59,810 nucleotides of DNA from a virus (IMGVR_UViG_3300046787_000377:1-59810); one strand, 5' to 3'. Positions 1,929-21,878 are shown, counted from the stretch's first letter. Notes: generated by a model from the sequence alone, not told the origin. Translations and numbers: made by a program.

Positions 1929-1931
1929 GTT

Positions 1932-5770: not shown

Positions 5771-8700
5771 ATGAACGAACTAAGTAAATACCTAGCAGAA
5801 CAAATTCTATTGACTGAAGAAGAGTTAAAGAATTTTGTAGTAATATATGCAGGTAGATTCCAACCATTTCACAAAGGACACTTTGCAACTTATCAAGGAC
5901 TAGTAAAAAAGTTTGGTAAGGATAGAGTGTTTATCGGTACATCGAATAAAACCGATAATCAAAAATCCCCATTTAACTTTAAGGAAAAGAAAACCATAAT
6001 GACTAAAATGTTTGGTATACCATCAAACAAAATAGTTGAAGTGAAGAATCCTTATGCTCCAACTGAAATACTTAAAAATTTTGATGAAAATACAACCGGA
6101 TTTATTACTGTTGTTGGTGAGAAAGATGAACAACGTTTGGGTGGTAAATACTTTGAAAAATATAAAGGTAAAATAGAATTTGGGTATAAAGATAAAGGAT
6201 ATGTTTATGCTTCACCTGCACAACCAAACGCGGTTAGTGGAACTGATGTTCGTAATTGGTTAAGCAAAGGAACTGATGATGAAAAGAGAAAAAATTTCTT
6301 AAAAGCATACCCAAAATTTGATGAAACAATTTATAAATTCATTACACTTAAATTAGCAAAATTAGGTGAAGGTTTACATGAATCTATAAATGAAGCAAAA
6401 TGGGAAGAAGATACATATAGAAAGTGTATGCTAGGTAAATTACCACTTTCACTTAATATTGTTAAAAAATTAGTAGACCCTATAAGAACAACATCATTAC
6501 ATTCAACTGATGTTGAAAATTTATCAAACGTTGCTGGATTACAAGGAACTAAAAAATCAATTTCCACATTTACTAAAACTACCAAATGGGGAAAATTAGT
6601 TCAAGGAAAAGGTATGCATACAAAAGGTGGTGTAATTGTAGCATTATCAGGAGTAGTATTGGCACAAAGTATAATGGACTTGTGGACCGAACCTGATAAA
6701 CAAGGTAGAAGATGGGTAGAACCAGGAACTGTAATAGATGGGTTGGGTAGAGAAAGAGATGTTGTATTTAATTTTGCACCGGAATTAAAACCATACAAAG
6801 AAAAATGGAGAGAACATTCTTTTGATGGTACAATTACTAATGCAGAAAAAGCTGAATTCATAAAAAAATATTATGATGCAGCTGAAAAATATATGTTGAG
6901 TAAGAAAAAAGAATTTCAAGACAAATACTTAAACTCAAATAAATTATATTATGATTCTGATTGGAATGAAGTAGTTCTTACTGATATTAAAATTGAAAAG
7001 ATTTTAGCAGTTCCTTCTAACTGGAGTGATGATGAAGTTGAAAATGAAAAAACATTAAAACAACTTAAACAAAAATACAAAAATGTAGAAGTTGCAGATA
7101 AAGAATCTGAAATTCAAAACTTTATTAAACGAAATGGTGGAAGTATTGTAGAATCAGTAAATGAAGAAATTACATTAGATGTCAATATTGGTGATACCGT
7201 TTTAATGGGTAAATTTAAGAATAAAAAAGTAGTTGTCAAATCAATCGGTAAAGATGAACATGGAATGCCAACTATTAATGGTAAAAAAGTGGCTACATTC
7301 AGAATAATACCAAAACAAAATATTTTTAAAGAAGTTGCATCTATATCAAACGCAGGTGCAGATTCACAACCGGATGGTGGTTATATACCAAAAGGTAAAA
7401 AACGAAAATTAGGAGCAGATGATGGTGCTAATAGTAGTGATGAGTGGTTCGTAAGAGGTGGGTACACTCAAACCGATTTTCCTAAAGCAGATGCAATATT
7501 TGATAAAGAGGATGAAAATCAATTTACATTTAAAATTAAATCAAAAAATAATGCTAGAAGTGATTTTGATGCAACAACATACCCATATGCACCAACTGAT
7601 ATTGATGTAACAAAACCAGTGGAGAAAATAAAAGTGAAAAAACCTAAAAATAAAAAATTGGATATTGTTAAAGAATTGGTTGATGAATATTCTGAACTAT
7701 TAGATTTATTAGAAGCTTCTTCGGAAGATGAGAAATACACCCATATTGGGTATGGTAAATATAAAGAAAAAGGTAAAGAAAAAGACCAAAATTCTCCTAC
7801 ATTTACTAAAGATGATAGTGGAAAGTATATTCAATCAAAAACTGATACTAAACCTACACAAGATAAACCAACTGGTCAAGCAATACAAGGTGCAGATATG
7901 TTTAAACACGATAAAAGTGTTAAACAAGAACCTACAAAATCTAAAACGGATTGGACAAGTGGAAAAGATGGTTGGGAAATAATTGATGATGAGCGTTCTA
8001 AGGTAAAAAATATTAGACCATACACCGATGAAGAATTACAAGGTGAAACTGGTGAATATTTTGATAACGATGTAACTAAAAACGTTGCACCAACCGCTTT
8101 TAAAGATGAATCTGATATGATTCAAAAAATAAAAGATGCAACTCCAACTTATTTATCATCCGAGCAACTTCAAAATATGAATAACTCCGATGTAGGGGAT
8201 ATTCTTTCTGCAAGCGAAGATGGTGGTAAAGATTCCATGATGAAATTGGGACAAGAACGTGCAATGGATTATGGTAAAGATTGGAATAGATTAATAAAAG
8301 GTATTCAGACCGGGAACGATGTACCACCACCAATTGCATTAAAAGATAAAAATGGTGAACTACACTTAGTTGCAGGAAATACTCGTTTAATGTCATTTAC
8401 TGCCAATGGTAAAAACCTACCCGTAAAGGTAATAGATTACGATGGTGAGTTTAACTATGACGATAAAGGGGATTCACAATCAACTGAACCTAAACGTTCT
8501 ATATCAAAGAATATACAACGAAAAATTAGTGGTTGGGCAGAAAAAGAAAAAGAATTTTTTACTAAATCTCAAGATAAACCTAATTCAGAAACTCGTAGAA
8601 CAATTGGTGAAGCATTAAGAGATAAAGCAAAAGGAGCCGGGAAAGCAATTGCACATGGATTTAAACATGAGGCACATTTATTTAAAGAAGCAGCAAATGC

Positions 8701-11524
8701 AGTTAAAAAATTCTCAACTGGTAAAGAACTAAGTGATTCTGATAAAAAAGCAGTGAAGGATGTTGCTATAAAAGTAGTAACAACCGCAGTTACTGCAGCT
8801 GCAATGGGTGGGTTAGCAGGTGGAACAATTGCTTTTGCAAAATTAGTGGCCATTGAGTTAGTACCTCACGTAGCAATTGAAACTTTAGCAGTAGGTGCTG
8901 GTAAAGCTGCATTATTTGCAGATACAAACGAAGATGAAAGAATGTTGATGGGATTTATGGAAAAGATTATTGATGGGATAGAATCAATGGAAATACCAGA
9001 TGATGTGATGGAAAAAATTGTGGATTCATATAATGAAAAAAAGAACGTATCGGAAATGAGTCATTCACAATTAAATCAAATTGAAAAATATGCAGAAAAA
9101 CAATTATCACCAGAAGATATTGAATTTACTAAACATTTTTTTGATAGAGTAAATGATACCCGTAATGGTAAAGAAATATCTGATGCAGAATTGACAGGAT
9201 TTTTTAAACGTTTATCTCGTCACAAAAAACAATTTAAAGAATTCTTAGACAAATATCAACAAATCGTTGTTAAAGATAAACGAAATGGTATAAACATTCC
9301 TTTTGTTAAACAAGCAAATCAAATTATTGCAAAAACTATAATGAGAAAAGATAATTTCCAAACATCAAATCCAACTTTAGCAGTTGAGATTGCAGTACAA
9401 ATAGATAAAATTCCCGGTGGATTAGCAAAAGGATTAACATTAAATGATATTGCTAAAAAACACAATGTGTCGATTGAAGATATAACTAACGAATTTAAAA
9501 AAGGTTATAAAGTAGAAAGAGAACATACAACTGATAGTGATGTTGCTAAAGAAATAGCAATGGACCATTTGTTTGAAGACCCTAAGTATTATGATAAATT
9601 AGCAAAAATTGAAGAGGCAGGTAGAGTTCCACAGAGTTTTAATTATGGAACTGGATGGGATTACCATACTGCGATTGGTACTAATCCAAATAAATATAAA
9701 GGTAAAGCAAATTTTCCAACTAAATATTCTGGCCAACCTGATTTAGAAGATAACTCTGATGATGTTAATGAATTAACTAAGGGAGAAGTTTTTGGTGGAA
9801 CTTTAAAAATTGGTGGTCAGCCAGTTAAAGTAGAAGTAGAATTGATGGGTTCTGATAATAAAAAGAAAGTATTCATAACAAAAGTACTTCATATTGATAG
9901 TAAATATCGTTCTAAACTACCTTCAAATGGAATATTAGAAATACCTGCTAGAATATTTAGAACTCCTGGTGGTGGGTGGTATAAAATCAAAACACCATCA
10001 GCGTTTGAATCGGTAAACGAATTAACTTACAAAGAAAAGCAAATTAAAACGGGAAATCCTGCTAATATATTTTATGCATTCTATAAAGGGAAATTTGATG
10101 TAGTTTATTGGGCTATGAATCCTAGTTCTTTATATGATATGTATTGGGATGAATTCAAAGTAAGAAGACCGGCAGGTTCTAAATTCAAATTAAATCCGGA
10201 GTTTATGATTGTTCCTAAAAAAGAATATGATAAACATCCAGAACATTATAGTAAATTAAAACCATATGTAGATAAGTTTTGGGATAAATTAAAAAATGAA
10301 TCGGTAAATGAATCACTTTTAATTGAAGGTGGTGCATATGGGCATATGAATCATCCATTTGATACTGAAATTAATTTAACATTTGGACAACTTAAAGATA
10401 TTGTAAATCGTGCATTAGAAGGTAACTTAGAATTGGCTAGAGAAAAAACTGATGGACAAGCATTGGCAATCAGTTGGGTAAACGGAAAATTAGTAGCAGC
10501 AAGAAATAAAGGTCATTTAGCTAATAGAGGTGCTAATGCATTAGATATTAGTGGAATTGCTACTAAGTTTGCTGGAAGAGGTGAGTTAGAAAAAGCATAT
10601 AATTTTGCAATGCAAGATTTGACAAAAGCTATTAAATCACTTTCGGATAAACAAAAAGAAAAGATTTTTAAAAATGGTGCATGTTTTATGAATATTGAGG
10701 TAATATATCCAACTTCAGTAAATGTGATTCCATATGGTCAACCTCTATTAGTATTTCACGGAACGATGGAATATGATGAAAGTGGTAACGCAATTGGTGA
10801 AGACCAACAATCCGGTAGAATATTGGGTGGTATGATTAAACAAATCGAACAAAATGTACAAGATAATTATACATTACAAGGACCACCGGTATTAAAATTA
10901 CCTAAATCACAAGACCTTTCATCTAAAAAACCAAAGTATCTTGCTAAGATTTCAAAATTACAAAAAGAATTTGGATTGGGTGATACTGCAGGTGTTGCAG
11001 AATACCACCAAGCATGGTGGGAAAACTTTGTAGATAAAAAATCACCATCTATTTTAGATAATACTACTAAAATTGGATTAGTTAAAAGATGGGCATTTGG
11101 TGAAAAGGGTTTCCGTATAGATAAGAATACAATTTCTGATGAGAAAACTCTTGCATGGGCAACTAAAATAGATAAAGAAGACCACAAAAAAATTACCAAA
11201 GAAAATCTTATGAAATTTGAAGATATATTCTTAGGTGTGGGTGCAGAAGTTTTATCATTCACAGCATCGGTATTAACTGTGAATCCAGATAAGGCTGTTA
11301 GGGATATGAAAAAACGTTTAGAACAAACAATTAAAGATGTCGAAGTAAGCGGTGACCCTAAGAAGATAGAAAAATTAAAATTAGAACTAAAAAGATTAAA
11401 TGCAATCGGTGGACCTGATAAGATAGTTCCAATTGAAGGGATTGTGTTTATTTATAATGGACAAACATTTAAATTAACTGGTGCGTTTGCATCATTAAAT
11501 CAACTTTTAGGAATTTTTTATTAA
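5771..11524 (+). CDS. Multidomain putative internal head polyprotein: HIGH-family nucleotidyltransferase, ParB/Srx-like, DUF5661-like and C-terminal ligase-like domains
   Basis: GRFQPFHKGH at the N-terminus; PPPI..LVAGNTR; EHT..AKEIAMDHLFEDPKYYDKL; EKTDG...EGIV...FK; ES(V/I)NE linkers; late-promoter motif at 5739. Confidence 0.65.
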   Translation: MNELSKYLAEQILLTEEELKNFVVIYAGRFQPFHKGHFATYQGLVKKFGKDRVFIGTSNKTDNQKSPFNFKEKKTIMTKMFGIPSNKIVEVKNPYAPTEILKNFDENTTGFITVVGEKDEQRLGGKYFEKYKGKIEFGYKDKGYVYASPAQPNAVSGTDVRNWLSKGTDDEKRKNFLKAYPKFDETIYKFITLKLAKLGEGLHESINEAKWEEDTYRKCMLGKLPLSLNIVKKLVDPIRTTSLHSTDVENLSNVAGLQGTKKSISTFTKTTKWGKLVQGKGMHTKGGVIVALSGVVLAQSIMDLWTEPDKQGRRWVEPGTVIDGLGRERDVVFNFAPELKPYKEKWREHSFDGTITNAEKAEFIKKYYDAAEKYMLSKKKEFQDKYLNSNKLYYDSDWNEVVLTDIKIEKILAVPSNWSDDEVENEKTLKQLKQKYKNVEVADKESEIQNFIKRNGGSIVESVNEEITLDVNIGDTVLMGKFKNKKVVVKSIGKDEHGMPTINGKKVATFRIIPKQNIFKEVASISNAGADSQPDGGYIPKGKKRKLGADDGANSSDEWFVRGGYTQTDFPKADAIFDKEDENQFTFKIKSKNNARSDFDATTYPYAPTDIDVTKPVEKIKVKKPKNKKLDIVKELVDEYSELLDLLEASSEDEKYTHIGYGKYKEKGKEKDQNSPTFTKDDSGKYIQSKTDTKPTQDKPTGQAIQGADMFKHDKSVKQEPTKSKTDWTSGKDGWEIIDDERSKVKNIRPYTDEELQGETGEYFDNDVTKNVAPTAFKDESDMIQKIKDATPTYLSSEQLQNMNNSDVGDILSASEDGGKDSMMKLGQERAMDYGKDWNRLIKGIQTGNDVPPPIALKDKNGELHLVAGNTRLMSFTANGKNLPVKVIDYDGEFNYDDKGDSQSTEPKRSISKNIQRKISGWAEKEKEFFTKSQDKPNSETRRTIGEALRDKAKGAGKAIAHGFKHEAHLFKEAANAVKKFSTGKELSDSDKKAVKDVAIKVVTTAVTAAAMGGLAGGTIAFAKLVAIELVPHVAIETLAVGAGKAALFADTNEDERMLMGFMEKIIDGIESMEIPDDVMEKIVDSYNEKKNVSEMSHSQLNQIEKYAEKQLSPEDIEFTKHFFDRVNDTRNGKEISDAELTGFFKRLSRHKKQFKEFLDKYQQIVVKDKRNGINIPFVKQANQIIAKTIMRKDNFQTSNPTLAVEIAVQIDKIPGGLAKGLTLNDIAKKHNVSIEDITNEFKKGYKVEREHTTDSDVAKEIAMDHLFEDPKYYDKLAKIEEAGRVPQSFNYGTGWDYHTAIGTNPNKYKGKANFPTKYSGQPDLEDNSDDVNELTKGEVFGGTLKIGGQPVKVEVELMGSDNKKKVFITKVLHIDSKYRSKLPSNGILEIPARIFRTPGGGWYKIKTPSAFESVNELTYKEKQIKTGNPANIFYAFYKGKFDVVYWAMNPSSLYDMYWDEFKVRRPAGSKFKLNPEFMIVPKKEYDKHPEHYSKLKPYVDKFWDKLKNESVNESLLIEGGAYGHMNHPFDTEINLTFGQLKDIVNRALEGNLELAREKTDGQALAISWVNGKLVAARNKGHLANRGANALDISGIATKFAGRGELEKAYNFAMQDLTKAIKSLSDKQKEKIFKNGACFMNIEVIYPTSVNVIPYGQPLLVFHGTMEYDESGNAIGEDQQSGRILGGMIKQIEQNVQDNYTLQGPPVLKLPKSQDLSSKKPKYLAKISKLQKEFGLGDTAGVAEYHQAWWENFVDKKSPSILDNTTKIGLVKRWAFGEKGFRIDKNTISDEKTLAWATKIDKEDHKKITKENLMKFEDIFLGVGAEVLSFTASVLTVNPDKAVRDMKKRLEQTIKDVEVSGDPKKIEKLKLELKRLNAIGGPDKIVPIEGIVFIYNGQTFKLTGAFASLNQLLGIFY

Positions 11525-11582
11525 AAATATCTCTTTCGCCATATTTATCTATATAAAAATAAAAACCTAATATATAATAATA

Positions 11583-12242: not shown

Positions 12243-12243
12243 T

Positions 12244-13830
12244 ATGGCAGGTGCTTCATTAAAAGATATAATTAAAATTGAGTATCAGAAATGTGCTGGT
12301 GACCCGATATATTTCATGCGTAAGTATTGTATGATTCAACATCCGGTACGAGGTAAAATTCCATTTCATTTATATCCATTTCAGGAAGATACTCTAACCG
12401 ATTTCAAAAATAATCGTTATAACATCGTATTAAAATCACGTCAGACAGGTATATCTACCTTAGTTGCGGGATTCTCTCTTTGGAAGATGTTATTTAATCA
12501 AGATTTTAACGTATTGGTAATTGCAACTAAACAAGAAGTTGCTAAAAACCTTATCACAAAGATTAGGGTAATGAATCAATACCTTCCAAGTTGGTTAAAA
12601 CAAACCACAGTTGAAGATAATAAACTTTCCCTACGTTACTCAAATGGTTCACAGGCAAAAGCAACTTCTGCAGCAGGAGATGCTGGTCGTTCTGAAGCCC
12701 TATCGCTATTAGTATTTGACGAGGCAGCCTTTATTGATAGTATTGAGGAGATTTGGATATCTGCCCAATCTACATTATCAACGGGTGGTAACGCAATTAT
12801 CCTTTCTACACCAAATGGTGTGGGTAATTTCTTTCATAGAACGTGGGTAGGTGCAGAAGAGGGTAGAAACGGATTCAATACTATTCGTTTACACTGGTCA
12901 GTACACCCTGAGCGTGCTCAACCGTGGAGAGATGAACAAGAAAGGTTATTAGGACCAAAAGGTGCAGCACAAGAATGTGATTGTGATTTCGTAAGTTCCG
13001 GTGATACGGTCATTGACCCTGCATTATTACAATTTTATAGAGAAACATATTGTCAAGAACCTTTAGAGAAGACTGGATTCGATGGAAACCTTTGGAAATG
13101 GGAATATCCTGATTATAATCAATCATATATGGTTGTTGCCGACGTTGCTCGTGGAGATGGTGGGGATTATTCCACTGCACAGGTATTTGATGTAGTAAAT
13201 TCGACACAAGTTGCAGAGTATAAGGGGAAATTGGATACAAAAGATTTTGGAAACTTCTTAGTTTCACTATCAACCGATTACAACAATGCATTATTAGTTG
13301 TGGAGAACGCAAATATTGGTTGGGCCGTTATTCAACAAGTAATTGATAGGAGTTATGGAAACTTATTTTATATGAGTAAGGATTTAAAATATGTAGATGT
13401 TGCCCATCAGATGACAAATAAGTTTAGAGCAGAAGAACGAGGTATGGTTGCTGGGTTCTCTACCACCTCTAAAACCCGTCCATTAATTATTTCTAAGTTA
13501 GATGATTACCTAAGAGAAAAATCCTTTACAATCCGTTCTACAAGGTTAATTGATGAACTATTTACATTTATTTGGAATGGTAATCGAGCAGAAGCAATGA
13601 AAGGTTACAATGATGACTTAGTTATGGCCCTTTCGATTGGATTATGGGTTAGGGATACTGCATTAAGATTAAGACAAGAAGGTATAGATTTAACTAAACA
13701 AGCATTAGGTGGTATAAATCAAAGTATAACACAAGTTGATGGGTTCGGTGGTAATAGTTCTTTTGATGAAAACCCTTGGCAAATGAGAGTTGGTAATCAA
13801 ACCGAAGATTTGTCGTGGTTACTAAAATAA
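12244..13830 (+). CDS. terL: Terminase large subunit (T4 gp17-like)
   Basis: KSRQTGIST Walker A, LLVFDEAAF Walker B, STPNG, nuclease motifs ADVARG and DDLVMA. Confidence 0.95.
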   Translation: MAGASLKDIIKIEYQKCAGDPIYFMRKYCMIQHPVRGKIPFHLYPFQEDTLTDFKNNRYNIVLKSRQTGISTLVAGFSLWKMLFNQDFNVLVIATKQEVAKNLITKIRVMNQYLPSWLKQTTVEDNKLSLRYSNGSQAKATSAAGDAGRSEALSLLVFDEAAFIDSIEEIWISAQSTLSTGGNAIILSTPNGVGNFFHRTWVGAEEGRNGFNTIRLHWSVHPERAQPWRDEQERLLGPKGAAQECDCDFVSSGDTVIDPALLQFYRETYCQEPLEKTGFDGNLWKWEYPDYNQSYMVVADVARGDGGDYSTAQVFDVVNSTQVAEYKGKLDTKDFGNFLVSLSTDYNNALLVVENANIGWAVIQQVIDRSYGNLFYMSKDLKYVDVAHQMTNKFRAEERGMVAGFSTTSKTRPLIISKLDDYLREKSFTIRSTRLIDELFTFIWNGNRAEAMKGYNDDLVMALSIGLWVRDTALRLRQEGIDLTKQALGGINQSITQVDGFGGNSSFDENPWQMRVGNQTEDLSWLLK

Positions 13831-13877: not shown

Positions 13878-14300
13878 ATGATAAAGTTAAAAAACATTTA
13901 TAAGGAAGAAGTAGAGGATTACCCATTCGACCAACCAGAACATAGTATTTACGATTATGATGAATTGGATGTTGAAGATGAAGATGAGGAAGATTTTTTA
14001 AATTTTCTTAAATCATACACAACTGAATTAAAAGAAGCAAATTGTAATTGTGTGTTCGAAGCAGAATATCAAGGAAGAGATGTGAAGTTGGGTAAACCAA
14101 TGCAAGGTGATGTTAAGAAATTTAAAGTTTATGTTAAAAACCCAAAGACCGGAAAAGTAGTTAAAGTAAACTTTGGTCAACCGGGAATGAACATTAAGAA
14201 AAATAACCCCGAAAGAAGAAAATCTTTTAGAGCAAGACATAATTGTGACCAACCAGGTCCAAGAACAAAAGCACGTTACTGGTCTTGCAGAAAATGGTAA
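13878..14300 (+). CDS. Putative head-associated protein (acidic N-terminus, basic C-terminal domain)
   Basis: C-terminal KVNFG..RRKSFRARHNC..ARYWSCRKW; AGGAG SD; between terminase and portal. Confidence 0.55.
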   Translation: MIKLKNIYKEEVEDYPFDQPEHSIYDYDELDVEDEDEEDFLNFLKSYTTELKEANCNCVFEAEYQGRDVKLGKPMQGDVKKFKVYVKNPKTGKVVKVNFGQPGMNIKKNNPERRKSFRARHNCDQPGPRTKARYWSCRKW

Positions 14301-14311: not shown

Positions 14312-16042
14312 ATGGCAGATACTTCATTTTTTGGTAGGTTAAGAAAACTCTTTTCCCAAAAGGCTATCGTTACAGTTACGCCCGATGGTAAGAGAAAAGT
14401 TTTTGACTTCGATGAAAGACAAGAAACAAACCTATCATCATTAAGAGATAGATACACAAAGATTCAAAAATCTTTCTATGAACAAGCAGGTGGTGCACAA
14501 TCAATGGCATACCAACAAGTTCGTAGAGAAGTTTTTAGAGATTACGATGCTATGGACCAAGACCCGATTATTGCATCGGCTTTGGATATCTATGCAGATG
14601 AATCTACTTTGAAGAACGAATTTGGTGATATGTTAATCATCCGTTCTGATAATCCACGTGTTCAAGAATTATTAGAGAACTTATATTACGATATTTTAAA
14701 TATTGAATTTAGTTTATGGCCGTGGGTTCGTAATATGTGTAAGTATGGTGATTTTTTCTTAGGATTGGAAATCGCAGATGGTAAGGGTATCGTAAACGTA
14801 ACCCCATATTCACAATACAACACCGAAAGAATCGAAGGACACGACCCTACAAACCCACATATGGTAAAATTCAGAGTAATGGATGATGCTATTGGTAAAG
14901 TAGATTACGATAACTTTGAAATGGCTCACTTCCGTTTACTGTCAGATACTAACTGGTTACCATATGGTAAATCTATGGTAGAAAATGGTAGAAGATTGTG
15001 GAAACAATTATCTCTAATGGAAGATGCGATGTTAATCCATCGTATTATGAGAGCACCTGAAAAAAGAGTGTTTAAAATTGATATAGGTAATATCAATCCA
15101 ACTGAAGTTGATAATTACATGCAACGTATTATTAGCAAAATGAAAAAAGTTCCTTTTGTTAATAAAGAAACCGGTGATTATAACTTAAAATATAATATGC
15201 AAAACTTAACGGAAGATTTTTATCTACCGGTAAGAGGAGGTGACAGTGGAACTAACATTGAAAATCTAAGTGGTTTAGAATACACTGCAACCGAAGATAT
15301 TGAATACTTAAAAGGTAAATTATTTGCTGCATTAAAAATTCCAAAAGCATATTTGGGATATGAAGAAAATGTAAATGGTAAAGCAACCCTTGCAGCAGAA
15401 GATGTTCGTTTCGCACGAACCATCGAAAGAATCCAAAAAATGGTTACATCTGAATTATCAAGAATTGGTGTTATACACTTATTCGGTAATGGTATACAAG
15501 ATGCAGAAATGACTAATTTCGAAATTAGTTTAGTAAATCCATCTACAATCTACGAACAAGAAAAAGTAAACCTATGGTCTGAAAAGATTCGTTTGGCAAC
15601 TGATATGCAATCTTTAAAAATGCTATCTAAGGATTGGATATATGATAATATTTTCAAAATGTCTGAATCTGAACAAACTGAACAACGTGGTAAGATTGTA
15701 GAAGATATTAAAGATACATTCCGTTACAATTCAATTGAAAATGAAGGTAATGACCCTGCTAACCCACCAAAACAAACTGATGTTGAGGAAAGTTTAGAAA
15801 ACTTAAAGAGTGAACTTAAAGCAAATGTGGGAAGACCTCGTGAAGGTAACACCTATGGTAAAGATAAACATCCATATGGTAGAGACCCATTAGGTGATAA
15901 TGAGAGAACTGCAAAACGTAGTAGAACTTCAGAACACAAAGCCAAAAGTTTTATCAATGGTATTGCATCAAAACGTAAGTTTTTACATGAAATGAAAGAT
16001 ATGTTAGATGAAACTAACATTATCGATGATACGGAAAATTAA
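14312..16042 (+). CDS. Portal protein (T4 gp20-like)
   Basis: LMEDAMLIHRIMRAPEKRVFKIDIGN, EDFYLPVRGG, LFAALKIPKAYL. Confidence 0.95.
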   Translation: MADTSFFGRLRKLFSQKAIVTVTPDGKRKVFDFDERQETNLSSLRDRYTKIQKSFYEQAGGAQSMAYQQVRREVFRDYDAMDQDPIIASALDIYADESTLKNEFGDMLIIRSDNPRVQELLENLYYDILNIEFSLWPWVRNMCKYGDFFLGLEIADGKGIVNVTPYSQYNTERIEGHDPTNPHMVKFRVMDDAIGKVDYDNFEMAHFRLLSDTNWLPYGKSMVENGRRLWKQLSLMEDAMLIHRIMRAPEKRVFKIDIGNINPTEVDNYMQRIISKMKKVPFVNKETGDYNLKYNMQNLTEDFYLPVRGGDSGTNIENLSGLEYTATEDIEYLKGKLFAALKIPKAYLGYEENVNGKATLAAEDVRFARTIERIQKMVTSELSRIGVIHLFGNGIQDAEMTNFEISLVNPSTIYEQEKVNLWSEKIRLATDMQSLKMLSKDWIYDNIFKMSESEQTEQRGKIVEDIKDTFRYNSIENEGNDPANPPKQTDVEESLENLKSELKANVGRPREGNTYGKDKHPYGRDPLGDNERTAKRSRTSEHKAKSFINGIASKRKFLHEMKDMLDETNIIDDTEN

Positions 16043-16108: not shown

Positions 16109-16981
16109 ATGAAAAAAATAAAACATTCGAAATTCAAAAATACAGGGTTCTTATTTGAATTATTAACACGTCAAATAACGTTGGAAATATTAAACAACGC
16201 ACCTGAAGAAAAAGCCAAAAGAATAGTACAAGAATTCTTTGGTGGAAAAACTGAATTGGCTAAGGAATTACGCTTATTTAATTTGTTAATAAACGAAAAG
16301 TATAATTCAGAGAGTAAAGCAGAAAAGTATATTGATGCTATTATCGAAACTCGTACAAAATTAGATGAAAATAAACTTGCAAGAGAAAAATATAATCTTG
16401 TAAAGTCAATTAAAGAAAATTTCGAATTAGATTCATTCTTATCATCTCCAGTATCTAACTATAAAGTATTGGCATCAGTTCATAAGATATTTGAAGCAAA
16501 GATACAAGATGTAACTAATGTTAAAGATGTATTTGATGCTAAATTGACATTAATCGAACATATATCTACAACAACTCCATCTTTAAAACAAAAAGAAGAT
16601 AAGTTGATGGAAGATTATAGAAAACAAGAGAAAGATTTAAGATTACTTACATATAAAATTCTTGTTGAAACATTTAATAAGAAATATACCAACTTAAATG
16701 ATGACCAAAAGGATATTTTAAGAGAGTATATTAACAATGTAAACAACACTTCTAAATTTGGTGAATATTATGATTCTAAATTGAAGGTTGTTGTAACTGA
16801 ATTACACAAACTTTATTCCGAAGTTAATGATAAAATCACAAAGATTAAGTTGAAAGAAACTATTAATGTTATGAAACAACAGAAAATTGGTAAAAAAGTT
16901 ACCGATGAACAAGTTTCTGCATTGATGATGTCATATGAATTAATAAAGGAAATAAAAAATGTTAAAGAAAGAAAATCTTAA
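16109..16981 (+). CDS. Conserved head-region hypothetical protein
   Basis: Long helical ORF after portal, with late-promoter motif and SD. Confidence 0.6.
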   Translation: MKKIKHSKFKNTGFLFELLTRQITLEILNNAPEEKAKRIVQEFFGGKTELAKELRLFNLLINEKYNSESKAEKYIDAIIETRTKLDENKLAREKYNLVKSIKENFELDSFLSSPVSNYKVLASVHKIFEAKIQDVTNVKDVFDAKLTLIEHISTTTPSLKQKEDKLMEDYRKQEKDLRLLTYKILVETFNKKYTNLNDDQKDILREYINNVNNTSKFGEYYDSKLKVVVTELHKLYSEVNDKITKIKLKETINVMKQQKIGKKVTDEQVSALMMSYELIKEIKNVKERKS

Positions 16982-17816
16982 ATCGTATATAGACGAACTT
17001 ATTAAGGAAGTTGAAGAGGAGTTAGAAGAAGCCAATGTGACAGGTAATGTCGATGGATATCAGACTCCTTTTGCTTTTTCTGGTAAGAGTGCTTCTCAAA
17101 AACGAAAAAAAACAGCAACTCAATTGGGATACACGTTGGTAAATAACGATGTTAAAAATATTGATGAAGTAAACGAAGCAACAGCATCTGAAATCATAAA
17201 AGATTTAGATAAAGTACGAAACGATTTAATTAAAAAAGTAGATGTATTAATTGCTAAAAAGAAAAAACTTTATTCTAATGTTGATATTGAATCACCAATG
17301 AGTGCAGATGAGAAACAATTAGATAAAGATATACAATCTATATTTTCACAAATCCAACAAATAATTCAGCAAAAAAGAAAAATAAAAGAATCAGTAAACG
17401 AAGACAAAGTTTATATTGATTTTTTAAATAAGAAAAAAGGATTCAAGCAAGATAGAATTAAATTCAATTCATATGAAGAAGCTGTAAAGTGGGCAAGAAA
17501 AAATTTTGATAAGTTTGACCCTGATATGATTAAATACGAATCAGTAAACGAAGGTAAATCAAAAAGACCTGTGAATCGTTGGTTAGAATTGAAAAATGAT
17601 GAATCTATGCATGCTAATAAGAAGTTAGCAGTAGGATTGAAAGAATTAAAACATCAGTTAAGTGAGGTTGAAAAGTTTTTTCGTTGGTATAACCAAATTA
17701 AAACAATGAATGAGTTATCATCGGATGTTTTTTGGAAAAGAACTCACGGTCATATTTATAAGATAAAGGAAAGACTGATTAATATCGCAAAAACAATACA
17801 GGAGATAGAAAAATAA
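16959..17816 (+). CDS. Putative prohead core/internal protein with EVNE/ESVNE-delimited modules
   Basis: EVNE plus two ESVNE linkers; head module context. Confidence 0.55.
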   Translation: MLKKENLKSYIDELIKEVEEELEEANVTGNVDGYQTPFAFSGKSASQKRKKTATQLGYTLVNNDVKNIDEVNEATASEIIKDLDKVRNDLIKKVDVLIAKKKKLYSNVDIESPMSADEKQLDKDIQSIFSQIQQIIQQKRKIKESVNEDKVYIDFLNKKKGFKQDRIKFNSYEEAVKWARKNFDKFDPDMIKYESVNEGKSKRPVNRWLELKNDESMHANKKLAVGLKELKHQLSEVEKFFRWYNQIKTMNELSSDVFWKRTHGHIYKIKERLINIAKTIQEIEK

Positions 17817-18289
17817 TGAAAATATCAAGAGCAAGATTAAAAGAAATTGTAAAAGAAGTGATGGTAGAAGAAACTGAATACCAGCAATTCTTTCAAAAAG
17901 CATTAGATAAGGCTGGTAAATCAATACCAGATATGTCGGAAGAAGAAAAGAAAGCTTTCTTTGATAAAATAGATTCTGCGTGGAATGGTAAGGGTGAAAA
18001 GAATGAGGAATTAGTTGGTGGTCAAAAAAAATTAGATATTGATAAAGATGGTGATATTGGAAGTGATGATTTAGCAGATTTAAGAGCCGGTAAAAAAGCA
18101 AATGAATCTATAAATGAAGAAGATATTAATTGGGGTGCAACCGAAAACGCAATCATTAACTTTCTAAAAGCAAATACAAAAATTTTAGATAAAAGAGTTA
18201 AAGATAGAGATACTGATGGTGTTAAAAAGGGATTACAATCAATCATTGATGGTTTAACTAACGCACAACGCAGTTTAAAATTAAAATAA
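17816..18289 (+). CDS. Putative prohead core/internal protein
   Basis: MKISRARLKEIVKE leader, EF-hand-like DIDKDGDIGSDD, ESINE linker. Confidence 0.55.
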   Translation: MKISRARLKEIVKEVMVEETEYQQFFQKALDKAGKSIPDMSEEEKKAFFDKIDSAWNGKGEKNEELVGGQKKLDIDKDGDIGSDDLADLRAGKKANESINEEDINWGATENAIINFLKANTKILDKRVKDRDTDGVKKGLQSIIDGLTNAQRSLKLK

Positions 18290-18294
18290 CAACA

Positions 18295-18471
18295 ATGACT
18301 AAAAAAAGATTGTTAGAAATAATTGACGAAGAAATCCTTAAAGTAAAATGGGGGTTTGTAAACGAAGAAATTACTAGTGAGGATGAAAAACTTATTAGAG
18401 ATATTATTCGCAAAGAAGTTTCTGCAATATTTTTTGACTTATTTAAAAAACGAAACGTTTGGGGAGCATAA
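18295..18471 (+). CDS. Small head-region protein, 58 aa (not in ORF track)
   Basis: Manual translation MTKKRLLEIIDEEILKVKWGFVNEEITSEDEKLIRDIIRKEVSAIFFDLFKKRNVWGA; its stop overlaps the protease ATG (TAATG). Confidence 0.65.
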   Translation: MTKKRLLEIIDEEILKVKWGFVNEEITSEDEKLIRDIIRKEVSAIFFDLFKKRNVWGA

Positions 18472-19064
18472 TGAAAAATTTATTAATTGAGACTAATCTT
18501 TTTGAGGGTAGAATCAACGAAGATGCATCTGGTAGAACACTTGTTAAAGGTGTATTACAAAGAGCAGTAGCAGAAAATCAAAATGGTAGAGTATATCCAA
18601 GAGAAATTTTGATGCGTGAAGCAAAGAAATATGAAGTTCTTATCAAAGAGAGAAGAGCATTAGGGGAATTAGACCATCCAGATTCATCGGTAATCAATCT
18701 AAAGAACGTTTCTCATAACATTAGAGAAATATGGTGGGAAGGTGATGATTTATGCGGAACAGTAGAAATCTTACCAACACCATCAGGTAACATATTAAAA
18801 GAATTATTAAGAGCAGGAATCCTATTAGGTATTTCATCTCGAGGTATGGGTTCAGTATCACCAATGGGTGAGGGTAAAGTAAAAGTTGGCGATGACTTTG
18901 AATTGATTGGGTGGGATTTCGTATCTAACCCATCTACTCATGGTGCATTTATGACACCAATGAACGAATCCGTAAACAAACAATTACAAGAACAAGCGAT
19001 AGTATGTGGTGATTTTTGTAAGGCACAAGACCTTATGAGAGAAATCATTACTGAATTATCATAA
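18471..19064 (+). CDS. Prohead protease (T4 gp21-like)
   Basis: NQNGRVYP, ALGELDHP, GISSRGMGS, DFVSNPST; start moved to the ATG at 18471. Confidence 0.93.
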   Translation: MKNLLIETNLFEGRINEDASGRTLVKGVLQRAVAENQNGRVYPREILMREAKKYEVLIKERRALGELDHPDSSVINLKNVSHNIREIWWEGDDLCGTVEILPTPSGNILKELLRAGILLGISSRGMGSVSPMGEGKVKVGDDFELIGWDFVSNPSTHGAFMTPMNESVNKQLQEQAIVCGDFCKAQDLMREIITELS

Positions 19065-19076
19065 AGGAATAATAAA

Positions 19077-19517: not shown

Positions 19518-19535
19518 AATATAGGAATAATAAAG

Positions 19536-20765
19536 ATGATTAAATTACACAATTTACTTAATGAAGAAACTTTTACCGCTACTAACAAAGCAAGTGGTAA
19601 AACATCAGTATTTAAATCAAAAGATAGTAGAGATGCTGCAATTAAAGCAGGAACTCACTCTGAAAAAGAAGATAGTAAATCAGATAAATCTGTTGGTAGT
19701 TCTTCAAAGGTAAATATCTTTGATAAACCAACAAAATCAGAACCTAAATCGGCATCAACATCTACTCCATCTAAAATGGGTGTAGATTCGGTAGTATATA
19801 ATACGAGAACTAAAACAGTTGGTATTGTAAGAATGGCTGATGAAAGAGGTGAAACTAAAACTGATGCAGATGGTAATGTAAATACATCTGAATTAGAACC
19901 ATACAACCCAACCAAGTATCCACATCAAAAAGATGCTAAAGTTGCACCATCTACTCAAAAAGAAGTAGATAAGAGAGGTTTATGGAATCCATTTGCACAA
20001 GATAAAGAAACTTCTAAAGAAGAACCTACTCAAACTGTAGCAGAACCTAAAAAGAAAAGACCGGGCAACCCATCGGTAAATAAAGAAGCTAAAAAGTTAG
20101 CGGATAAGTTTGGTATTAATCCAAATAAGATGAGTAAAGAAGATTACATCACTAAGATGTATCAAGCAGCAGTTTCTGCATTAACTGATTCAAATTTCCA
20201 TAGTGAAGCAAGAGAATTAGTTGCAGCAATTGAAGGAAAACCTGAATGGGCTAAAAGACCGGTGTATCCATCTTTACAAGACCCCGACTTTAAAGAGAAA
20301 ATGAAAGCTATTCGTACTAATTCGGCTGATAGTTCGATTTATATGAATGCAAAAGATGAAGTTGATGAATATGGTACGGAAGTATCACAAGCATCAGGAT
20401 GGGATGGTGTTGATGCAGCTGATGGTATTGCATTTACATTAAGAATGAACGGATTCCACAAACAAGCCGATATGATTCAATCTGTATTTGATAATAAACC
20501 ATATATGAAGAATGAAGGTAGAATTTCATTAAGTAAAATGATGAATGAATCAGAAGCAGAAGAAATTGCTAGTTTAACTGGTTTAAGAACACAGGCTGTT
20601 AAAAAATTCATTGATGATAACAACATTGACGATAGAAAATTATTAGCATATCTTAAAATTAAAGGTCCAAAGACATTAAGTAATAGAATGGATATGTCAA
20701 CTGCAATTGTAGGTAAACCGAATAACAAATTTGCACAAGGAATTATCAAAGCATTTCAAAAATAA
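19536..20765 (+). CDS. Putative internal head protein (multi-module)
   Basis: MIKLHNLLNE leader; internal ISLSKMMNE resembles the leader of the next gene. Confidence 0.5.
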   Translation: MIKLHNLLNEETFTATNKASGKTSVFKSKDSRDAAIKAGTHSEKEDSKSDKSVGSSSKVNIFDKPTKSEPKSASTSTPSKMGVDSVVYNTRTKTVGIVRMADERGETKTDADGNVNTSELEPYNPTKYPHQKDAKVAPSTQKEVDKRGLWNPFAQDKETSKEEPTQTVAEPKKKRPGNPSVNKEAKKLADKFGINPNKMSKEDYITKMYQAAVSALTDSNFHSEARELVAAIEGKPEWAKRPVYPSLQDPDFKEKMKAIRTNSADSSIYMNAKDEVDEYGTEVSQASGWDGVDAADGIAFTLRMNGFHKQADMIQSVFDNKPYMKNEGRISLSKMMNESEAEEIASLTGLRTQAVKKFIDDNNIDDRKLLAYLKIKGPKTLSNRMDMSTAIVGKPNNKFAQGIIKAFQK

Positions 20766-20783
20766 ATAATAGTAGGAGAATAG

Positions 20784-21878
20784 ATGATAAGTTTATCAAA
20801 AATAGTTAAAGAAGGTGAAGAACCAAAGAAATTTTCTAATGAAGTAAAAAAACATTTTTTAGAAATCGTTTCTACATACAACAAGTATCAAGAAATGATG
20901 GATAGAAAATCGGATATTGCTGAAATTGCAGAAATTTTAGGTGGAATTACTGAAGCAGCTAGAGAATTAGCGATAAACGAATCAGATGATTGGTTCGATG
21001 CTCAAACTGTTAAAAGAAATATGAGTGAATTGGCTAAATTAGGTGGCCAATTTGATAAAGTAGCAATCGAAGCAAAAAACTTAGACCAAAGATTACATGG
21101 ATTATACGAAGATATGGGTCATATCCTATCTCGTTACTATAAAATTGGTGAAGTTAGTGAAGAAACGATGAAACAACGTTTGGGTATCAAAGAAGCATCT
21201 CCTTGTTGGGATGGATACAAACAAGTTGGAATGAAGACCAAAGATGGTAAAGAAGTTCCTAATTGTGTACCTGCAAATGAATCAATTAAAGAATCTACTG
21301 ATTGTGGATGTAATTCGGTAAACGAAGCATTCGTAAAAGGCAAAACTTATGGTGGAACTAAATGTGAAGGTGGATGTTATGTGGGTAAACAAGGTTTAAT
21401 GAAACTAATTAAAATTTCTAAAGATAATCCAGAAAATGTATTTATGTTTAGAGATGATAACTATTCAGGAATACAACCACATTTCATTAAGAATGGTGTA
21501 ATTGCAAAAGCAAATACAATTAATCCATCTTATGATTTAGAAAAAAGTAAAGTAAGAAATTTAAAAATCGGTAACGATGTTATTCTTGCAGTTAGATTAT
21601 TTGAATCAGTAAACGAAGCAGCATTTGGATATAAAGACTCATCTGCATCATACATTGATAAACATAAAGATGAATACAAAACAGCAGAAAAAATGAATAA
21701 AGGAAACGAACAATCGTTTTATGATTCATTATCTGCATTAGAAGAGAAATTAGGTCATCCTAAGTATATGATATTCTTATCAAATGCGTTAAGAGGATAC
21801 AAAGTTGATATGTATAAAGACCCAAAAATTAAAAATCAACAAGAAGCAGAAGAAGCATTGTTCCTTTTAAGCAAATAA
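20784..21878 (+). CDS. Putative internal head polyprotein
   Basis: MISLSKIVKE leader; ESIKE, NSVNE and ESVNE linkers; CWDGYKQVG..VPNCVP mini-module. Confidence 0.55.
   Translation: MISLSKIVKEGEEPKKFSNEVKKHFLEIVSTYNKYQEMMDRKSDIAEIAEILGGITEAARELAINESDDWFDAQTVKRNMSELAKLGGQFDKVAIEAKNLDQRLHGLYEDMGHILSRYYKIGEVSEETMKQRLGIKEASPCWDGYKQVGMKTKDGKEVPNCVPANESIKESTDCGCNSVNEAFVKGKTYGGTKCEGGCYVGKQGLMKLIKISKDNPENVFMFRDDNYSGIQPHFIKNGVIAKANTINPSYDLEKSKVRNLKIGNDVILAVRLFESVNEAAFGYKDSSASYIDKHKDEYKTAEKMNKGNEQSFYDSLSALEEKLGHPKYMIFLSNALRGYKVDMYKDPKIKNQQEAEEALFLLSK

What the first reader, a model, noticed from the sequence alone, without database searches (positions are those of the whole stretch)
5771..21878. Candidate capsid-cargo cassette system: head polyproteins built from modules joined by ES(V/I)NE protease-site linkers
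Seen: ESINE/ESVNE recurs at apparent domain boundaries in several head-region ORFs: 6380, 7151, 10007 and 10298 (1917-aa ORF), 17388 and 17538, 18104, and 21603. Variants include DDVNE (9764), EVNE, NSVNE, ESIKE, LLNE, LLIE and ESVNK in the protease tail. I did not notice it in the tail or sugar genes. Established: T4 gp21 cleaves after Glu in (I/L)-X-E sites of core and internal proteins, and a gp21 homolog is encoded here (18471). Inference: the phage concatenates unrelated effector domains into prohead-targeted polyproteins that the protease cuts into separate proteins inside the capsid, ready for ejection into the host.
Basis: partly seen in the sequence, partly recalled or inferred. Interest (0 to 1): 0.9.

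Follow-up and report, generated by a model that had tools for sequence, protein, structure and literature searches.

The report
Protease-cut cargo polyproteins in phage head
A T4-like water phage seems to join unrelated protein modules with short cut-here signals for its capsid protease, so that enzymes could be loaded into the head as one long protein and freed as separate pieces; this rests on sequence comparison and still needs a virion proteome.

Summary
ES[VI]NE occurs 8 times, at the stated coordinates, in four head-module ORFs. About 0.06 are expected in the window's 18,945 residues, and codon choice varies between copies.

Comparison with 80 related viral contigs supports the cassette idea:
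- Homologues of the 1917-aa ORF run from 639 to 2026 aa, with a constant N-terminal NMNAT-like module and a constant C-terminal module (M6).
- 85 of 217 internal BLAST breakpoints lie within 10 residues of the five linker sites, against 5.5% expected.
- Two modules have moved between different carrier genes, bounded on both sides by the linker.
- When M6 stands alone it carries a 10-residue leader, MI[KR]Lxx[IL]L[NK]E, in 37 of 51 cases. The same leader heads four other protein families. It resembles the T4 capsid targeting sequence.

A Peptidase_S77 (gp21-type) protease with conserved self-sites lies in the module.

Cleavage, packaging and ejection are inferred, not shown. Some carriers are probably scaffold or core proteins rather than effectors. 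M6 relatives are fused to RNA-repair-type domains.

Verdict: a new variant of the T4 CTS/internal-protein system. Confidence 0.7.

The parts
5771..11524 (+). 1917-aa modular polyprotein ORF, just upstream of a 219-aa ORF and the large terminase. Its N-terminal 10-mer ends in L-A-E at residues 8-10.
5771..6394 (+). Module M1 (aa 1-208): HxGH nucleotidyltransferase, NadM/NMNAT-like. Ends in ESINE (nt 6380-6394).
   Evidence: Pfam CTP_transf_like E=1.6e-8. Best PDB sequence hits are NMN adenylyltransferases, E=3.8e-6. NCBIfam scores lie below the curated cut-offs.
6395..7165 (+). Module M2 (aa 209-465), no family assigned. Ends in ESVNE (nt 7151-7165). In locus L072 it lies next to M6 instead.
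7166..9772 (+). Composite middle part (aa 466-1334). It holds a small conserved domain (aa 466-521), a hydrophobic stretch (aa 998-1044), a phrog_23027 block with a sub-threshold RegB_T4 hit (aa 1096-1206), DUF5661 (aa 1226-1282) and a disordered tail ending in DDVNE (nt 9758-9772). Weaker Glu-ended boundaries lie near aa 521, 639, 1095, 1206 and 1282.
9773..10021 (+). Module M4 (aa 1335-1417): small beta domain (pLDDT 87-93). Ends in ESVNE (nt 10007-10021).
10022..10312 (+). Module M5 (aa 1418-1514), rare in relatives. Ends in ESVNE (nt 10298-10312).
10313..11524 (+). Module M6 (aa 1515-1917): conserved C-terminal module with invariant Lys in EKTDG, weakly RNA-ligase-like. It begins SLLIE|G, a second Phi-x-E site, and its first 10 residues are disordered in the model.
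13878..14300 (+). 140-aa ORF between terminase and portal, with an N-terminal 10-mer (MIKLKNIYKE) of the shared-leader type. Its relatives form the largest leader-bearing family (32 ORFs).
16959..17816 (+). 285-aa post-portal carrier ORF cut into four pieces by DEVNE (17163), ESVNE (17388) and ESVNE (17538). Relatives are 143-502 aa, with middle pieces gained or lost. Piece aa 74-148 is found inside giant ORFs of five other contigs.
17816..18289 (+). 157-aa ORF with L-K-E at residues 8-10 and ESINE at nt 18104. The site is conserved in relatives.
18471..19064 (+). Prohead protease, Peptidase_S77 (gp21-type). Conserved candidate self-sites: MKxLLIE|T at the N-terminus and [MV]NE|S after the catalytic domain.
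19536..20765 (+). 409-aa basic ORF (pI 9.1 after leader removal) with leader MIKLHNLLNE. Candidate internal protein.
20784..21878 (+). 364-aa carrier ORF with leader MISLSKIVKE and linkers ESIKE (21279), NSVNE (21312) and ESVNE (21603). Piece aa 182-278 is found in the post-portal ORF of locus L004, bounded by ESVNE and STNE.
22444..23532 (+). 362-aa very acidic, helical ORF directly before the capsid gene. Likely gp22-type scaffold (inferred from position and composition). Carries TDVNE, STINE and AIINE.
23567..25177 (+). Major capsid protein (gp23-like). Conserved Q-L-L-D-E|A at aa 57-61 (nt 23735-23749) is the likely propeptide cleavage site.

Best explanation
The window holds the head-morphogenesis module of a T4-like ('far-T4') aquatic myophage.

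ES[VI]NE is the preferred form of a broader site, [VIL]-[NKT]-E followed by S or G. The phage's gp21-type prohead serine protease would cut this site after the Glu.

Proteins would reach the prohead core in one of two ways:
- by a 10-residue N-terminal leader, M-I-[KRS]-L-x-x-[IL]-[LM]-[NK]-E, which is itself removed at its final Glu and is the counterpart of the T4 capsid targeting sequence; or
- by being fused, through ES[VI]NE-type linkers, behind a protein that is already targeted.

After the shell closes, the activated protease would cut the linkers. Scaffold-like pieces would be cleared. Folded, mostly basic modules would stay with the DNA as separate internal proteins, available for delivery into the next cell. 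These include an NMNAT-like nucleotidyltransferase and a conserved ligase-like module.

Because every module is bounded by the same short site, genes can gain, lose, reorder or exchange modules without disturbing the others.

Shown here: the motif and its statistics; module boundaries and swaps at the linkers; the shared leader; the protease family; the conserved sites in the capsid protein and in the protease.

Inferred: cleavage at these sites, packaging of the 1917-aa protein, retention and ejection of its pieces, and the enzymatic roles of the modules.
For: Motif statistics. There are 8 ES[VI]NE against 0.06 expected, all in 4 head ORFs, with synonymous codon variation. In 80 related contigs, 53 of 57 E[ST][VILM]NE fall in the same five head families. 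The 80 terminases have 1, and the 73 portals and 8 capsid ORFs have none.

Boundaries.
- 85 of 217 internal BLASTP endpoints of the 1917-aa ORF lie within 10 residues of the five sites (39% against 5.5% expected). 57 of 217 lie within 5 residues.
- Homologues measure 639-2026 aa with constant ends and a variable, reordered middle.
- In 145 fused M6 proteins from two database searches, Glu stands 7 residues before the GAYGH anchor in 72 and 8 residues before in a further 22 (background Glu 6%). Among the 72, P3 is V/I/L in 63, P2 is mostly N/K/T, and P1' is S or G in 58.

Cassette moves.
- Piece 74-148 of ORF 16959 occurs at 75-89% identity inside giant ORFs of 5 contigs, with linker motifs on both sides.
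- Piece 182-278 of ORF 20784 occurs in the post-portal ORF of L004 between ESVNE and STNE.

Leader.
- Among 749 ATG-started ORFs, Phi-x-E ends at residue 10 in 84, against 21-33 at residues 8, 9, 11 and 12.
- The strict leader heads 52 ORFs of 5 unrelated families.
- 37 of 51 stand-alone M6 proteins carry it, and 43 of 51 have Phi-x-E ending at residue 10.
- In L022, P0004 and P0190 the leader is retained internally at a fusion joint.

Protease. Peptidase_S77 E=3.3e-27. LLIE|T and [MV]NE|S are conserved across nearly all of the 33 aligned proteases; exceptions are noted under evidence against. The capsid protein has conserved L-[LIV]-[DS]-E|A.

Structure. The first 10 residues of M6 have pLDDT below 50 next to a confident fold. 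The sites at aa 1334, 1417 and 1514 lie outside the two confident domains of the second model.

Fragments. Predicted fragments are mostly basic, pI 8.6-9.9.

Literature (passages read):
- T4 needs only the first 10 residues of IPIII for packaging. Residues 4 and 7 act in targeting, residues 8 and 10 in processing. gp21 itself has LIE-9 (PMC9026906).
- T4 Alt is cut at ITE-6 and LTE-619 (PMC5694885).
Against: No proteomic, biochemical or expression data exist for this phage or any close relative, so cleavage and packaging are untested.

The second model is poor overall (mean pLDDT 58). M5 is not confidently folded, so two of the three structural placements are weak.

The N-terminal 10-mer of the giant ORF (MNELSKYLAE) differs from the MI[KR]L leader. 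In distant relatives residue 10 is not Glu (for example MNKLTEWLVKP). It may be part of the M1 fold rather than a targeting signal.

Several module boundaries (aa 1095, 1206, 1282) lack an aliphatic P3.

The loose [VIL]NE also occurs in non-head ORFs.

The cultured relatives immuto and Mel-JY01 (about 53-55% capsid identity) do not show the MI[KR]L leader or the strict pentapeptide pattern, and their proteases lack the LLIE N-terminus.

The counts over related contigs and clusters are not independent events.
Confidence: 0.7

Rival explanations
1. The sites are protease sites, but their purpose is disposal. The carriers are scaffold or core proteins that are chopped up and expelled to make room for DNA, as with T4 gp22, gp67 and gp68. 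No functional cargo is delivered.
For: ORFs 16959, 17816 and 22444 occupy the gp67/gp68/gp22 positions and are helical or acidic. The mobile 75-aa piece of ORF 16959 looks like a coiled-coil spacer. In T4 and SPN3US most propeptide fragments leave the head (PMC9026906; PMC10052503; passages read).
Against: The giant ORF and its relatives carry recognisable enzyme domains: CTP_transf_like in 22 of 34, plus PolyA_pol, HD, AAA_33/Zeta_toxin kinases and DUF5661. M6 is conserved in more than 2000 clusters. Making enzymes only to discard them is unlikely. Predicted fragments are basic, like retained internal proteins.
Confidence: 0.13
2. The giant ORF is a cytoplasmic polyprotein. It would be an expression device for RNA-repair and NAD-type enzymes, cut by the phage protease or another enzyme outside the capsid, and never packaged.
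For: The domains fused to M6 in relatives form a coherent RNA-repair-like set that would work in the cytoplasm. The giant ORF's own N-terminus is not the shared leader.
Against: Stand-alone M6 carries the same leader as head-module ORFs. Modules are exchanged with post-portal and post-protease head ORFs. The gene is syntenic with terminase in all relatives examined. In T4, gp21 matures its substrates in the assembled prohead (PMC9026906).
Confidence: 0.1
3. ES[VI]NE is not cut. It would be a docking or flexible-linker motif (for example binding the scaffold or portal), or a footprint of recombination.
For: No cleavage data exist. The pentapeptide is more specific than the Phi-x-E needed by gp21-type enzymes.
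Against: Codons vary and flanks are unrelated, so DNA-level recombination signals are unlikely. The motif shares P3-P1 with the leader end, the capsid propeptide site and the protease self-sites. At the M6 joint it can be replaced by other [VIL]-x-E forms.
Confidence: 0.05

Closest known systems
T4 internal proteins (IPI-III, Alt) with the capsid targeting sequence, processed by gp21
   Same: A roughly 10-residue N-terminal leader is shared by unrelated proteins and removed at Phi-x-Glu. The protease is of family S77. The genes lie in the head module and the cargo is basic. The leader's conserved positions 4, 7, 8 and 10 match the positions mapped as functional in T4 (PMC9026906 passages).
   Different: In T4 each cargo is a separate gene with its own leader. 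Here up to six or more unrelated modules are strung into one ORF through internal ES[VI]NE linkers, and modules move between carriers. The leader sequence itself is different; similarity to the T4 leader was not tested.
Head-protein processing in giant phages phiKZ, 201phi2-1 and SPN3US (gp175/gp245 proteases)
   Same: A gp21-related protease cuts after Glu at a three-residue motif, often at several sites per protein. Many ejection proteins are processed, and the protease trims its own C-terminus (PMC10052503; PMC5694885; passages read).
   Different: There P3 is A/S/G, and cleavage removes N-terminal propeptides of 20-254 residues from single mature proteins. 'Polyprotein' does not occur in PMC10052503 or in PMC5694885 (search listing). 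Module cassettes are not described in the passages I read.
Polyvalent proteins of phages and conjugative elements (Iyer et al. 2017, PMC5512222)
   Same: Giant phage proteins combine many unrelated domains, are encoded next to virion genes, are predicted to be injected, and have highly mosaic architectures (passages read).
   Different: Those are anchored by MuF, portal or vRNAP domains and are proposed to be processed by embedded zincin-like peptidases. No such domain was found here. A SprT-like domain occurred in 1 of 34 relatives. Here the joints match the prohead protease site.
Polyproteins of eukaryotic RNA viruses and retroviruses
   Same: One ORF is cut by a virus protease at a short consensus between functional units. 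In retroviruses this happens inside the assembled particle (recalled knowledge).
   Different: Analogy only, with no homology. This is a dsDNA tailed phage with a serine protease of the herpesvirus/T4 type.

Membership tests
Substrates of a T4 gp21-type prohead protease | A Peptidase_S77 protease encoded in the same head module | tested here: met
   Pfam PF03420 E=3.3e-27, 95.7 bits against a cut-off of 27; phrog_207 E=2.3e-50
Substrates of a T4 gp21-type prohead protease | Sites with Glu at P1 and an aliphatic residue at P3 | tested here: met
   All 8 pentapeptides. At the M6 joint, 63 of the 72 Glu(-7) sites have V/I/L at P3.
Substrates of a T4 gp21-type prohead protease | Conserved site in the capsid propeptide and self-sites in the protease | tested here: met
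   L-[LIV]-[DS]-E|A in 11 capsid N-termini. LLIE|T and [MV]NE|S across nearly all of the 33 aligned proteases.
Substrates of a T4 gp21-type prohead protease | Cleavage actually occurs at these bonds | not testable with these tools
   Needs virion mass spectrometry or an in vitro assay
T4-type capsid targeting sequence (CTS) proteins | A short N-terminal leader shared by unrelated proteins and ending in a protease site | tested here: met
   52 ORFs in 5 families. Spike at residue 10: 84 against 21-33 at neighbouring residues. 37 of 51 stand-alone M6 proteins.
T4-type capsid targeting sequence (CTS) proteins | The leader is necessary and sufficient for encapsidation | not testable with these tools
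   Experiment needed (leader-reporter fusion)
T4-type capsid targeting sequence (CTS) proteins | Sequence similarity to the T4 leader itself | not tested
   No T4 sequence was fetched; the comparison would rest on recall
Polyvalent proteins (Iyer et al. 2017) | Several unrelated globular domains in one phage polypeptide near virion genes | tested here: met
Polyvalent proteins (Iyer et al. 2017) | Anchor or processing domain (MuF, portal fusion, zincin-like MPTase) | tested here: not met
   None in Pfam scans of the ORF or its modules at E up to 1
ATP-dependent RNA ligase / nucleotidyltransferase superfamily (module M6) | Motif I lysine (KxDG) | tested here: met
   EKTDG with invariant K45, D47 and G48 in 36 sequences. 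C-terminal EG.VF and K.TG are also invariant. Naming them as ligase motifs is from recall.
ATP-dependent RNA ligase / nucleotidyltransferase superfamily (module M6) | Profile or sequence match to a ligase family | tested here: not met
   No ligase family in Pfam at E up to 1. PDB sequence searches gave only spurious eS6 hits.
ATP-dependent RNA ligase / nucleotidyltransferase superfamily (module M6) | Fold similarity to solved ligases | tested here: inconclusive
   The top 8 Foldseek PDB hits are RNA ligases, but the best is E=0.013 with TM 0.15. In BFVD the named ligases score E 0.035-1.3. The VIA-align libraries were unavailable.
NadM-type NMN adenylyltransferase (module M1) | HxGH nucleotidyltransferase motif and family match | tested here: inconclusive
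   GRFQPFHKGH aligns to 2qjt and 1f9a over about 55 residues, E=3.8e-6. tblastn finds phage NMNAT/Nudix genes at 27-31% identity. NCBIfam scores of 20-33 bits are far below cut-offs of 127-449.

The most novel reading that the evidence does not exclude
A very large, uncharacterised family of aquatic-phage proteins are capsid-delivered repair kits. The family spans more than 2,100 clusters at 50% identity, with the M6 ligase-like module always at the C-terminus. On this reading, phages pre-load RNA-repair-type enzymes (ligase-like M6, P-loop kinases, HD phosphohydrolase, CCA-adding-type nucleotidyltransferase) and an NMNAT-like enzyme into the head as protease-separable cassettes. The enzymes would then be present at the moment of DNA entry, to undo anticodon-nuclease or NAD-depleting abortive-infection defences. 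The uniform cut site would make the cargo set freely re-assortable.
Probability: 0.25. Interest if true: 0.85.

Novelty: new variant of a known kind. Interest (0 to 1): 0.72.

Why it matters
T4's capsid targeting sequence is known from one phage group, and it loads one protein per gene. Here the same logic appears in a distant, environmentally abundant T4-like clade and is extended to polyproteins. The modules are separated by a uniform protease site and are visibly shuffled between genes and genomes.

If confirmed, three things follow:
- It would explain how phages diversify their injected protein set quickly.
- It would give a sequence rule (leader plus linker) for predicting virion cargo from metagenomes.
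- It would offer a natural design for loading several proteins into a capsid from one transcript.

It also flags a large unannotated family (M6), and its association with RNA-repair-type domains, as a candidate early counter-defence function.

Tried and rejected
- **Near-identical DNA in GenBank phages:** none found (megablast).
- **DNA-repeat explanation:** rejected on codon variation.
- **M6 identity by sequence:** Pfam, NCBIfam and PADLOC gave nothing meaningful. phmmer and a profile search against PDB sequences gave only spurious ribosomal eS6 hits.
- **VIA-align fold libraries:** not on the machine.
- **Foldseek on the second model (aa 1080-1530):** no match better than E=0.097. The RegB-like idea for aa 1096-1206 therefore rests only on a sub-threshold Pfam hit (E=0.0039, 17.7 bits against a cut-off of 27).
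- **ESM Atlas for M2:** no usable hit.
- **ParB-like segment near aa 850-890:** this was an impression by eye. No Pfam support at E up to 1, so it is dropped.
- **Virion proteomics of cultured relatives:** searches for immuto and Mel-JY01 found no paper with a virion proteome (listing only).
- **S-CREM2:** this T4-like cyanophage has a 'cytidylyltransferase' detected in virions (PMC10665884; passages and table text read). It was not among the 40 of 105 tblastn records listed for M1, and Synechococcus is not among the ten named genera. It is an analogy, not evidence.
- **Prior description:** searches for a prohead-protease polyprotein or cargo cassette found none.
- **Complex prediction (protease with linker):** not sent, because enzyme-substrate pairs are a poor use of that test.
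Full report
**What the window is.** All long ORFs run on the + strand. G+C is about 31%. The only genome held for the window is this 59.8-kb contig.

PHROG and Pfam scans identify:
- the large terminase (12244-13830);
- a T4 gp20-type portal (14312-16042);
- a Peptidase_S77 / gp21-type prohead protease (ATG 18471-19064; Pfam E=3.3e-27; phrog_207 E=2.3e-50);
- a gp23-type capsid protein (23567-25177).

The capsid protein is 53-55% identical to those of Flavobacterium phage immuto, Microcystis phage Mel-JY01 and an uncultured 484-kb phage, and 40% identical to that of Rhodothermus phage RM378. No near-identical DNA exists in the GenBank phage set. The region of the finding is therefore the head module of a distant T4-like myophage.

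**The observation.** It occurs nowhere else in any of the six frames. Composition predicts 0.062 copies for the 18,945 residues of 51 ORFs. In 5000 shuffles of the eight head ORFs the count never exceeded one. Ser, Val/Ile and Asn codons vary synonymously between copies and the flanking DNA is unrelated, so selection acts on the peptide.

The listed variants are present. The looser [VIL]NE is enriched in the head ORFs but is not exclusive to them.

**Relatives.** A scan of IMG/VR with the terminase returned 80 loci at 69-99% identity, the cap of at least 600 matches. ES[VILM]NE recurs in 25 of the 80 (55 copies). When locus ORFs are assigned to window ORFs by BLAST, 53 of 57 E[ST][VILM]NE copies fall in the families of ORFs 5771, 16959, 17816, 19536 and 20784. 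One lies in the 80 terminases, none in the 73 portals or 8 capsid ORFs, and 3 in unassigned ORFs. These contigs are related to each other, so the counts are not independent events.

**Module boundaries.** BLASTP of the 1917-aa ORF against all locus ORFs shows homologues of 639-2026 aa. They share:
- the N-terminal module M1 (aa 1-208);
- a short element after aa 461;
- the C-terminal module M6 (aa 1515-1917).

The middle modules are present, absent or reordered. In L072, for example, M2 lies directly before M6.

Of 217 HSP endpoints internal to both query and subject, 85 lie within 10 residues of the five sites (208, 465, 1334, 1417, 1514), against 5.5% expected. 57 lie within 5 residues, against 2.9% expected. 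Further endpoint clusters at about aa 521, 640, 1090, 1206 and 1282 mark boundaries with weaker Glu-ended sequences.

At the joint before M6, the upstream sequence is unrelated from contig to contig, yet it ends in [VIL]-[NKST]-E followed by [SG]xLLxEG-GAYGHM (54 locus ORFs plus the window's own).

**The wider M6 family.** A profile of M6 searched against 1.84 billion cluster representatives found 2101 proteins at E<=0.001 and 855 at E<=1e-30. In the best 150, M6 is nearly always C-terminal, in proteins of 277-1930 aa.

I pooled fused forms from this search and a second one, giving 145 with the anchor and at least 30 residues upstream:
- Glu stands at position -7 in 72 and at -8 in 22 more (background Glu 6%).
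- Among the 72, P3 is V, I or L in 63.
- P2 is N in 23, K in 21 and T in 11.
- P1' is S in 31 and G in 27.

A second site, L-x-E|G immediately before GAYGH, is present in 71 of 88.

**Cassette exchange between genes.**
- Piece aa 74-148 of post-portal ORF 16959 is bounded by DEVNE and ESVNE. It is found at 75-89% identity inside the giant pre-terminase ORFs of L072, L051, L047, L052 and L048. There it is again bounded by Glu-ended linkers such as ESTNE|A upstream and ES[VIL]NE| downstream. In L048 the downstream boundary is LKTE.
- Piece aa 182-278 of ORF 20784 is bounded by NSVNE and ESVNE. It is found in the post-portal ORF of L004 between ESVNE and STNE.
- The 16959 family ranges from 143 to 502 aa and the 20784 family from 142 to 357 aa, through gain and loss of such pieces.

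Four window ORFs (5771, 17816, 19536, 20784) have [VILM]-x-E ending exactly at residue 10. ORF 13878 has I-Y-K-E there.

Over 749 ATG-started ORFs of the window and the IMG/VR loci, such a site ends at residue 10 in 84. At residues 8, 9, 11 and 12 it ends in 21-33. The consensus M-[IVL]-[KRSI]-[LMI]-x-x-[ILVM]-[ILVM]-[NKS]-E heads 52 ORFs in five families with no mutual BLAST similarity:
- the 13878 family (32 ORFs);
- the 20784 family (10);
- the 19536 family (7);
- stand-alone M6 (2);
- one singleton.

Among 51 stand-alone M6 cluster representatives, 43 have the site at residue 10 and 37 match the strict leader. In L022, P0004 and P0190 the whole leader is retained internally, just before M6. 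That is what an in-frame fusion of two leader-bearing genes would leave.

Passages read in PMC9026906 state three things about T4. The first 10 residues of IPIII suffice for encapsidation. Residues 4 and 7 matter for targeting and residues 8 and 10 for processing. gp21 itself has an N-terminal LIE-9. The conserved positions of the leader found here are 4, 7, 8 and 10.

**Protease and capsid controls.** In the alignment of 33 proteases (the window's and 32 relatives'), the N-terminus reads MKxLLIE|T in nearly all. The catalytic domain ends FMxP[MV]NE|S in most; one row is truncated and a few vary, for example LQES in L065 and MGEG in Mel-JY01.

The capsid protein has a conserved Q-L-[LIV]-[DS]-E|A about 38 residues before the conserved VSVQPM block, in 11 loci including immuto and Mel-JY01. 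By analogy with gp23 (recalled knowledge), this is the propeptide site.

The enzyme's general rule therefore appears to be aliphatic-x-Glu, and ES[VI]NE is a preferred linker form of it.

**Structure.**
- M6, folded with 36 sequences, gave mean pLDDT 84. Residues 1-10 (SLLIEGGAYG) were below 50.
- The segment aa 1080-1530, folded with 23 sequences, gave a poor model overall (mean pLDDT 58). It has two confident domains: DUF5661 (aa about 1219-1284, pLDDT 94-98) and M4 (aa about 1335-1398, pLDDT 87-93).
- DDVNE ends a 48-residue low-confidence stretch directly before M4. ESVNE-1417 and ESVNE-1514 lie in low-confidence segments.
- M5 itself was not confidently folded, so only the placements next to DUF5661, M4 and M6 carry weight.

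**What the modules are.**
- M1 is an HxGH nucleotidyltransferase closest to NadM-type NMN adenylyltransferases. It scores far below the curated family cut-offs.
- M6 has no Pfam, NCBIfam or PDB sequence match. It has an invariant Lys in EKTDG and invariant EG.VF and K.TG near the C-terminus. Its top Foldseek PDB hits are all RNA ligases but weak (best E=0.013, TM 0.15). BFVD likewise gives weak RNA-ligase hits behind the family's own members.
- In 34 long M6-bearing relatives, Pfam finds CTP_transf_like in 22, DUF5661 in 9, PolyA_pol head in 5 (with its RNA-binding domain in 4 and HD in 4), Zeta_toxin-type kinase in 4, AAA_33 in 3, and KTI12, AAA_18 and SprT-like in 1 each. This is an RNA-repair-like assortment. 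The assignment of function is inference.
- aa 1096-1206 gives only a sub-threshold RegB_T4 hit.
- aa 998-1044 is hydrophobic.
- Most predicted fragments are basic.

**Comparison with what is known.**
- The nearest system is T4's CTS-bearing internal proteins cut by gp21. The differences are the polyprotein format, the internal linker and the module traffic.
- Giant phages (phiKZ, SPN3US) cut many head proteins after Glu at several sites. In the passages I read, this serves to remove N-terminal propeptides.
- The polyvalent proteins of Iyer et al. are mosaic, predicted-injected giants. They are anchored by MuF or portal domains and are proposed to be cut by their own metallopeptidase domains. 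Such domains are absent here.
- Five literature searches found no description of prohead-protease-separated cargo polyproteins. Supplements could not be opened.

**Limits.**
- Nothing here shows cleavage, packaging or ejection.
- The giant ORF's own N-terminal 10-mer is not the shared leader, and it is not Glu-ended in distant relatives.
- The cultured relatives immuto and Mel-JY01 lack the MI[KR]L leader, although immuto has its own shared N-termini.
- A virion-associated cytidylyltransferase reported for cyanophage S-CREM2 could not be linked to M1.
- ORF starts come from my own ORF caller.
- The search of earlier findings and the VIA-align libraries were unavailable.

**Verdict.** The cassette-with-protease-linker reading is well supported by comparative sequence evidence. 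Delivery as effectors remains an inference. It is a new variant of the T4 CTS/internal-protein system.

Noticed in passing
window 21937-22239 (+): A ribosomal protein S21 homologue (Pfam PF01165 E=3.9e-15) sits inside the head module, between the cargo ORF 20784 and the scaffold-like ORF. Mel-JY01 has S21 at the same relative place. It carries KKVNE at residues 23-27.
   Followed up: partly
window 32676-43640 (+): ORFs 32676, 35579, 39269, 41532; also 39951: Four tail-fibre-like ORFs start with the same N-terminus (MAQIIKHRRGS, MAAILKLRRGS, MAQIIKFKRST, MAQVLKLKRTA). ORFs 32676, 35579, 39951 and 41532 hold many copies of short repeats (TYTGS 20 times, SGSSQ 15 times in all).
   Followed up: no
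window 17816-18289 (+), aa about 73-85: The segment LDIDKDGDIGSDDL looks like an EF-hand-type calcium loop (recognised from memory, not tested). D.DG.I...DLA.LRA is conserved in 3 relatives.
   Followed up: no
L001 (Flavobacterium phage immuto) 10730-12030 and 6287/16454: Immuto lacks the MI[KR]L leader. Two adjacent ORFs just before its terminase share a different N-terminus (M..NF.L..FL[TV]E|NKLT, Glu at residue 12-13), and two others share MKKSQ[LI]......E. These may be a lineage-specific counterpart of the leader. Its 841-aa ORF (7105-9630) has 7 [LMV]NE, including ESVNE and ESLNE.
   Followed up: partly
window 12244-13830 and 14312-16042, and their homologues in L003-L082: [VILM]NE is under-represented in terminase (8 seen, about 34 expected from composition) and portal (9 seen, about 52 expected) across relatives. 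This would fit avoidance of the protease site, but the homologues are not independent.
   Followed up: partly
window 18295-18471 (+): A 58-aa ORF lies between ORF 17816 and the protease, with Phi-x-E at residues 8 and 12. Its 10 relatives have by far the highest [VILM]NE density (34 per 1000 aa).
   Followed up: no
window 155-5621 (+): Upstream of the giant ORF lie sugar-nucleotide-type genes. ORFs 963 and 1932, for example, start with a GxxGxxG Rossmann N-terminus. They were not analysed further.
   Followed up: no
window 13878-14300 (+): The leader-bearing 140-aa ORF has a Cys- and Arg-rich C-terminal half matching phrog_7595 (E=3.4e-12). It is the most widespread leader family (32 of 52).
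   Followed up: partly
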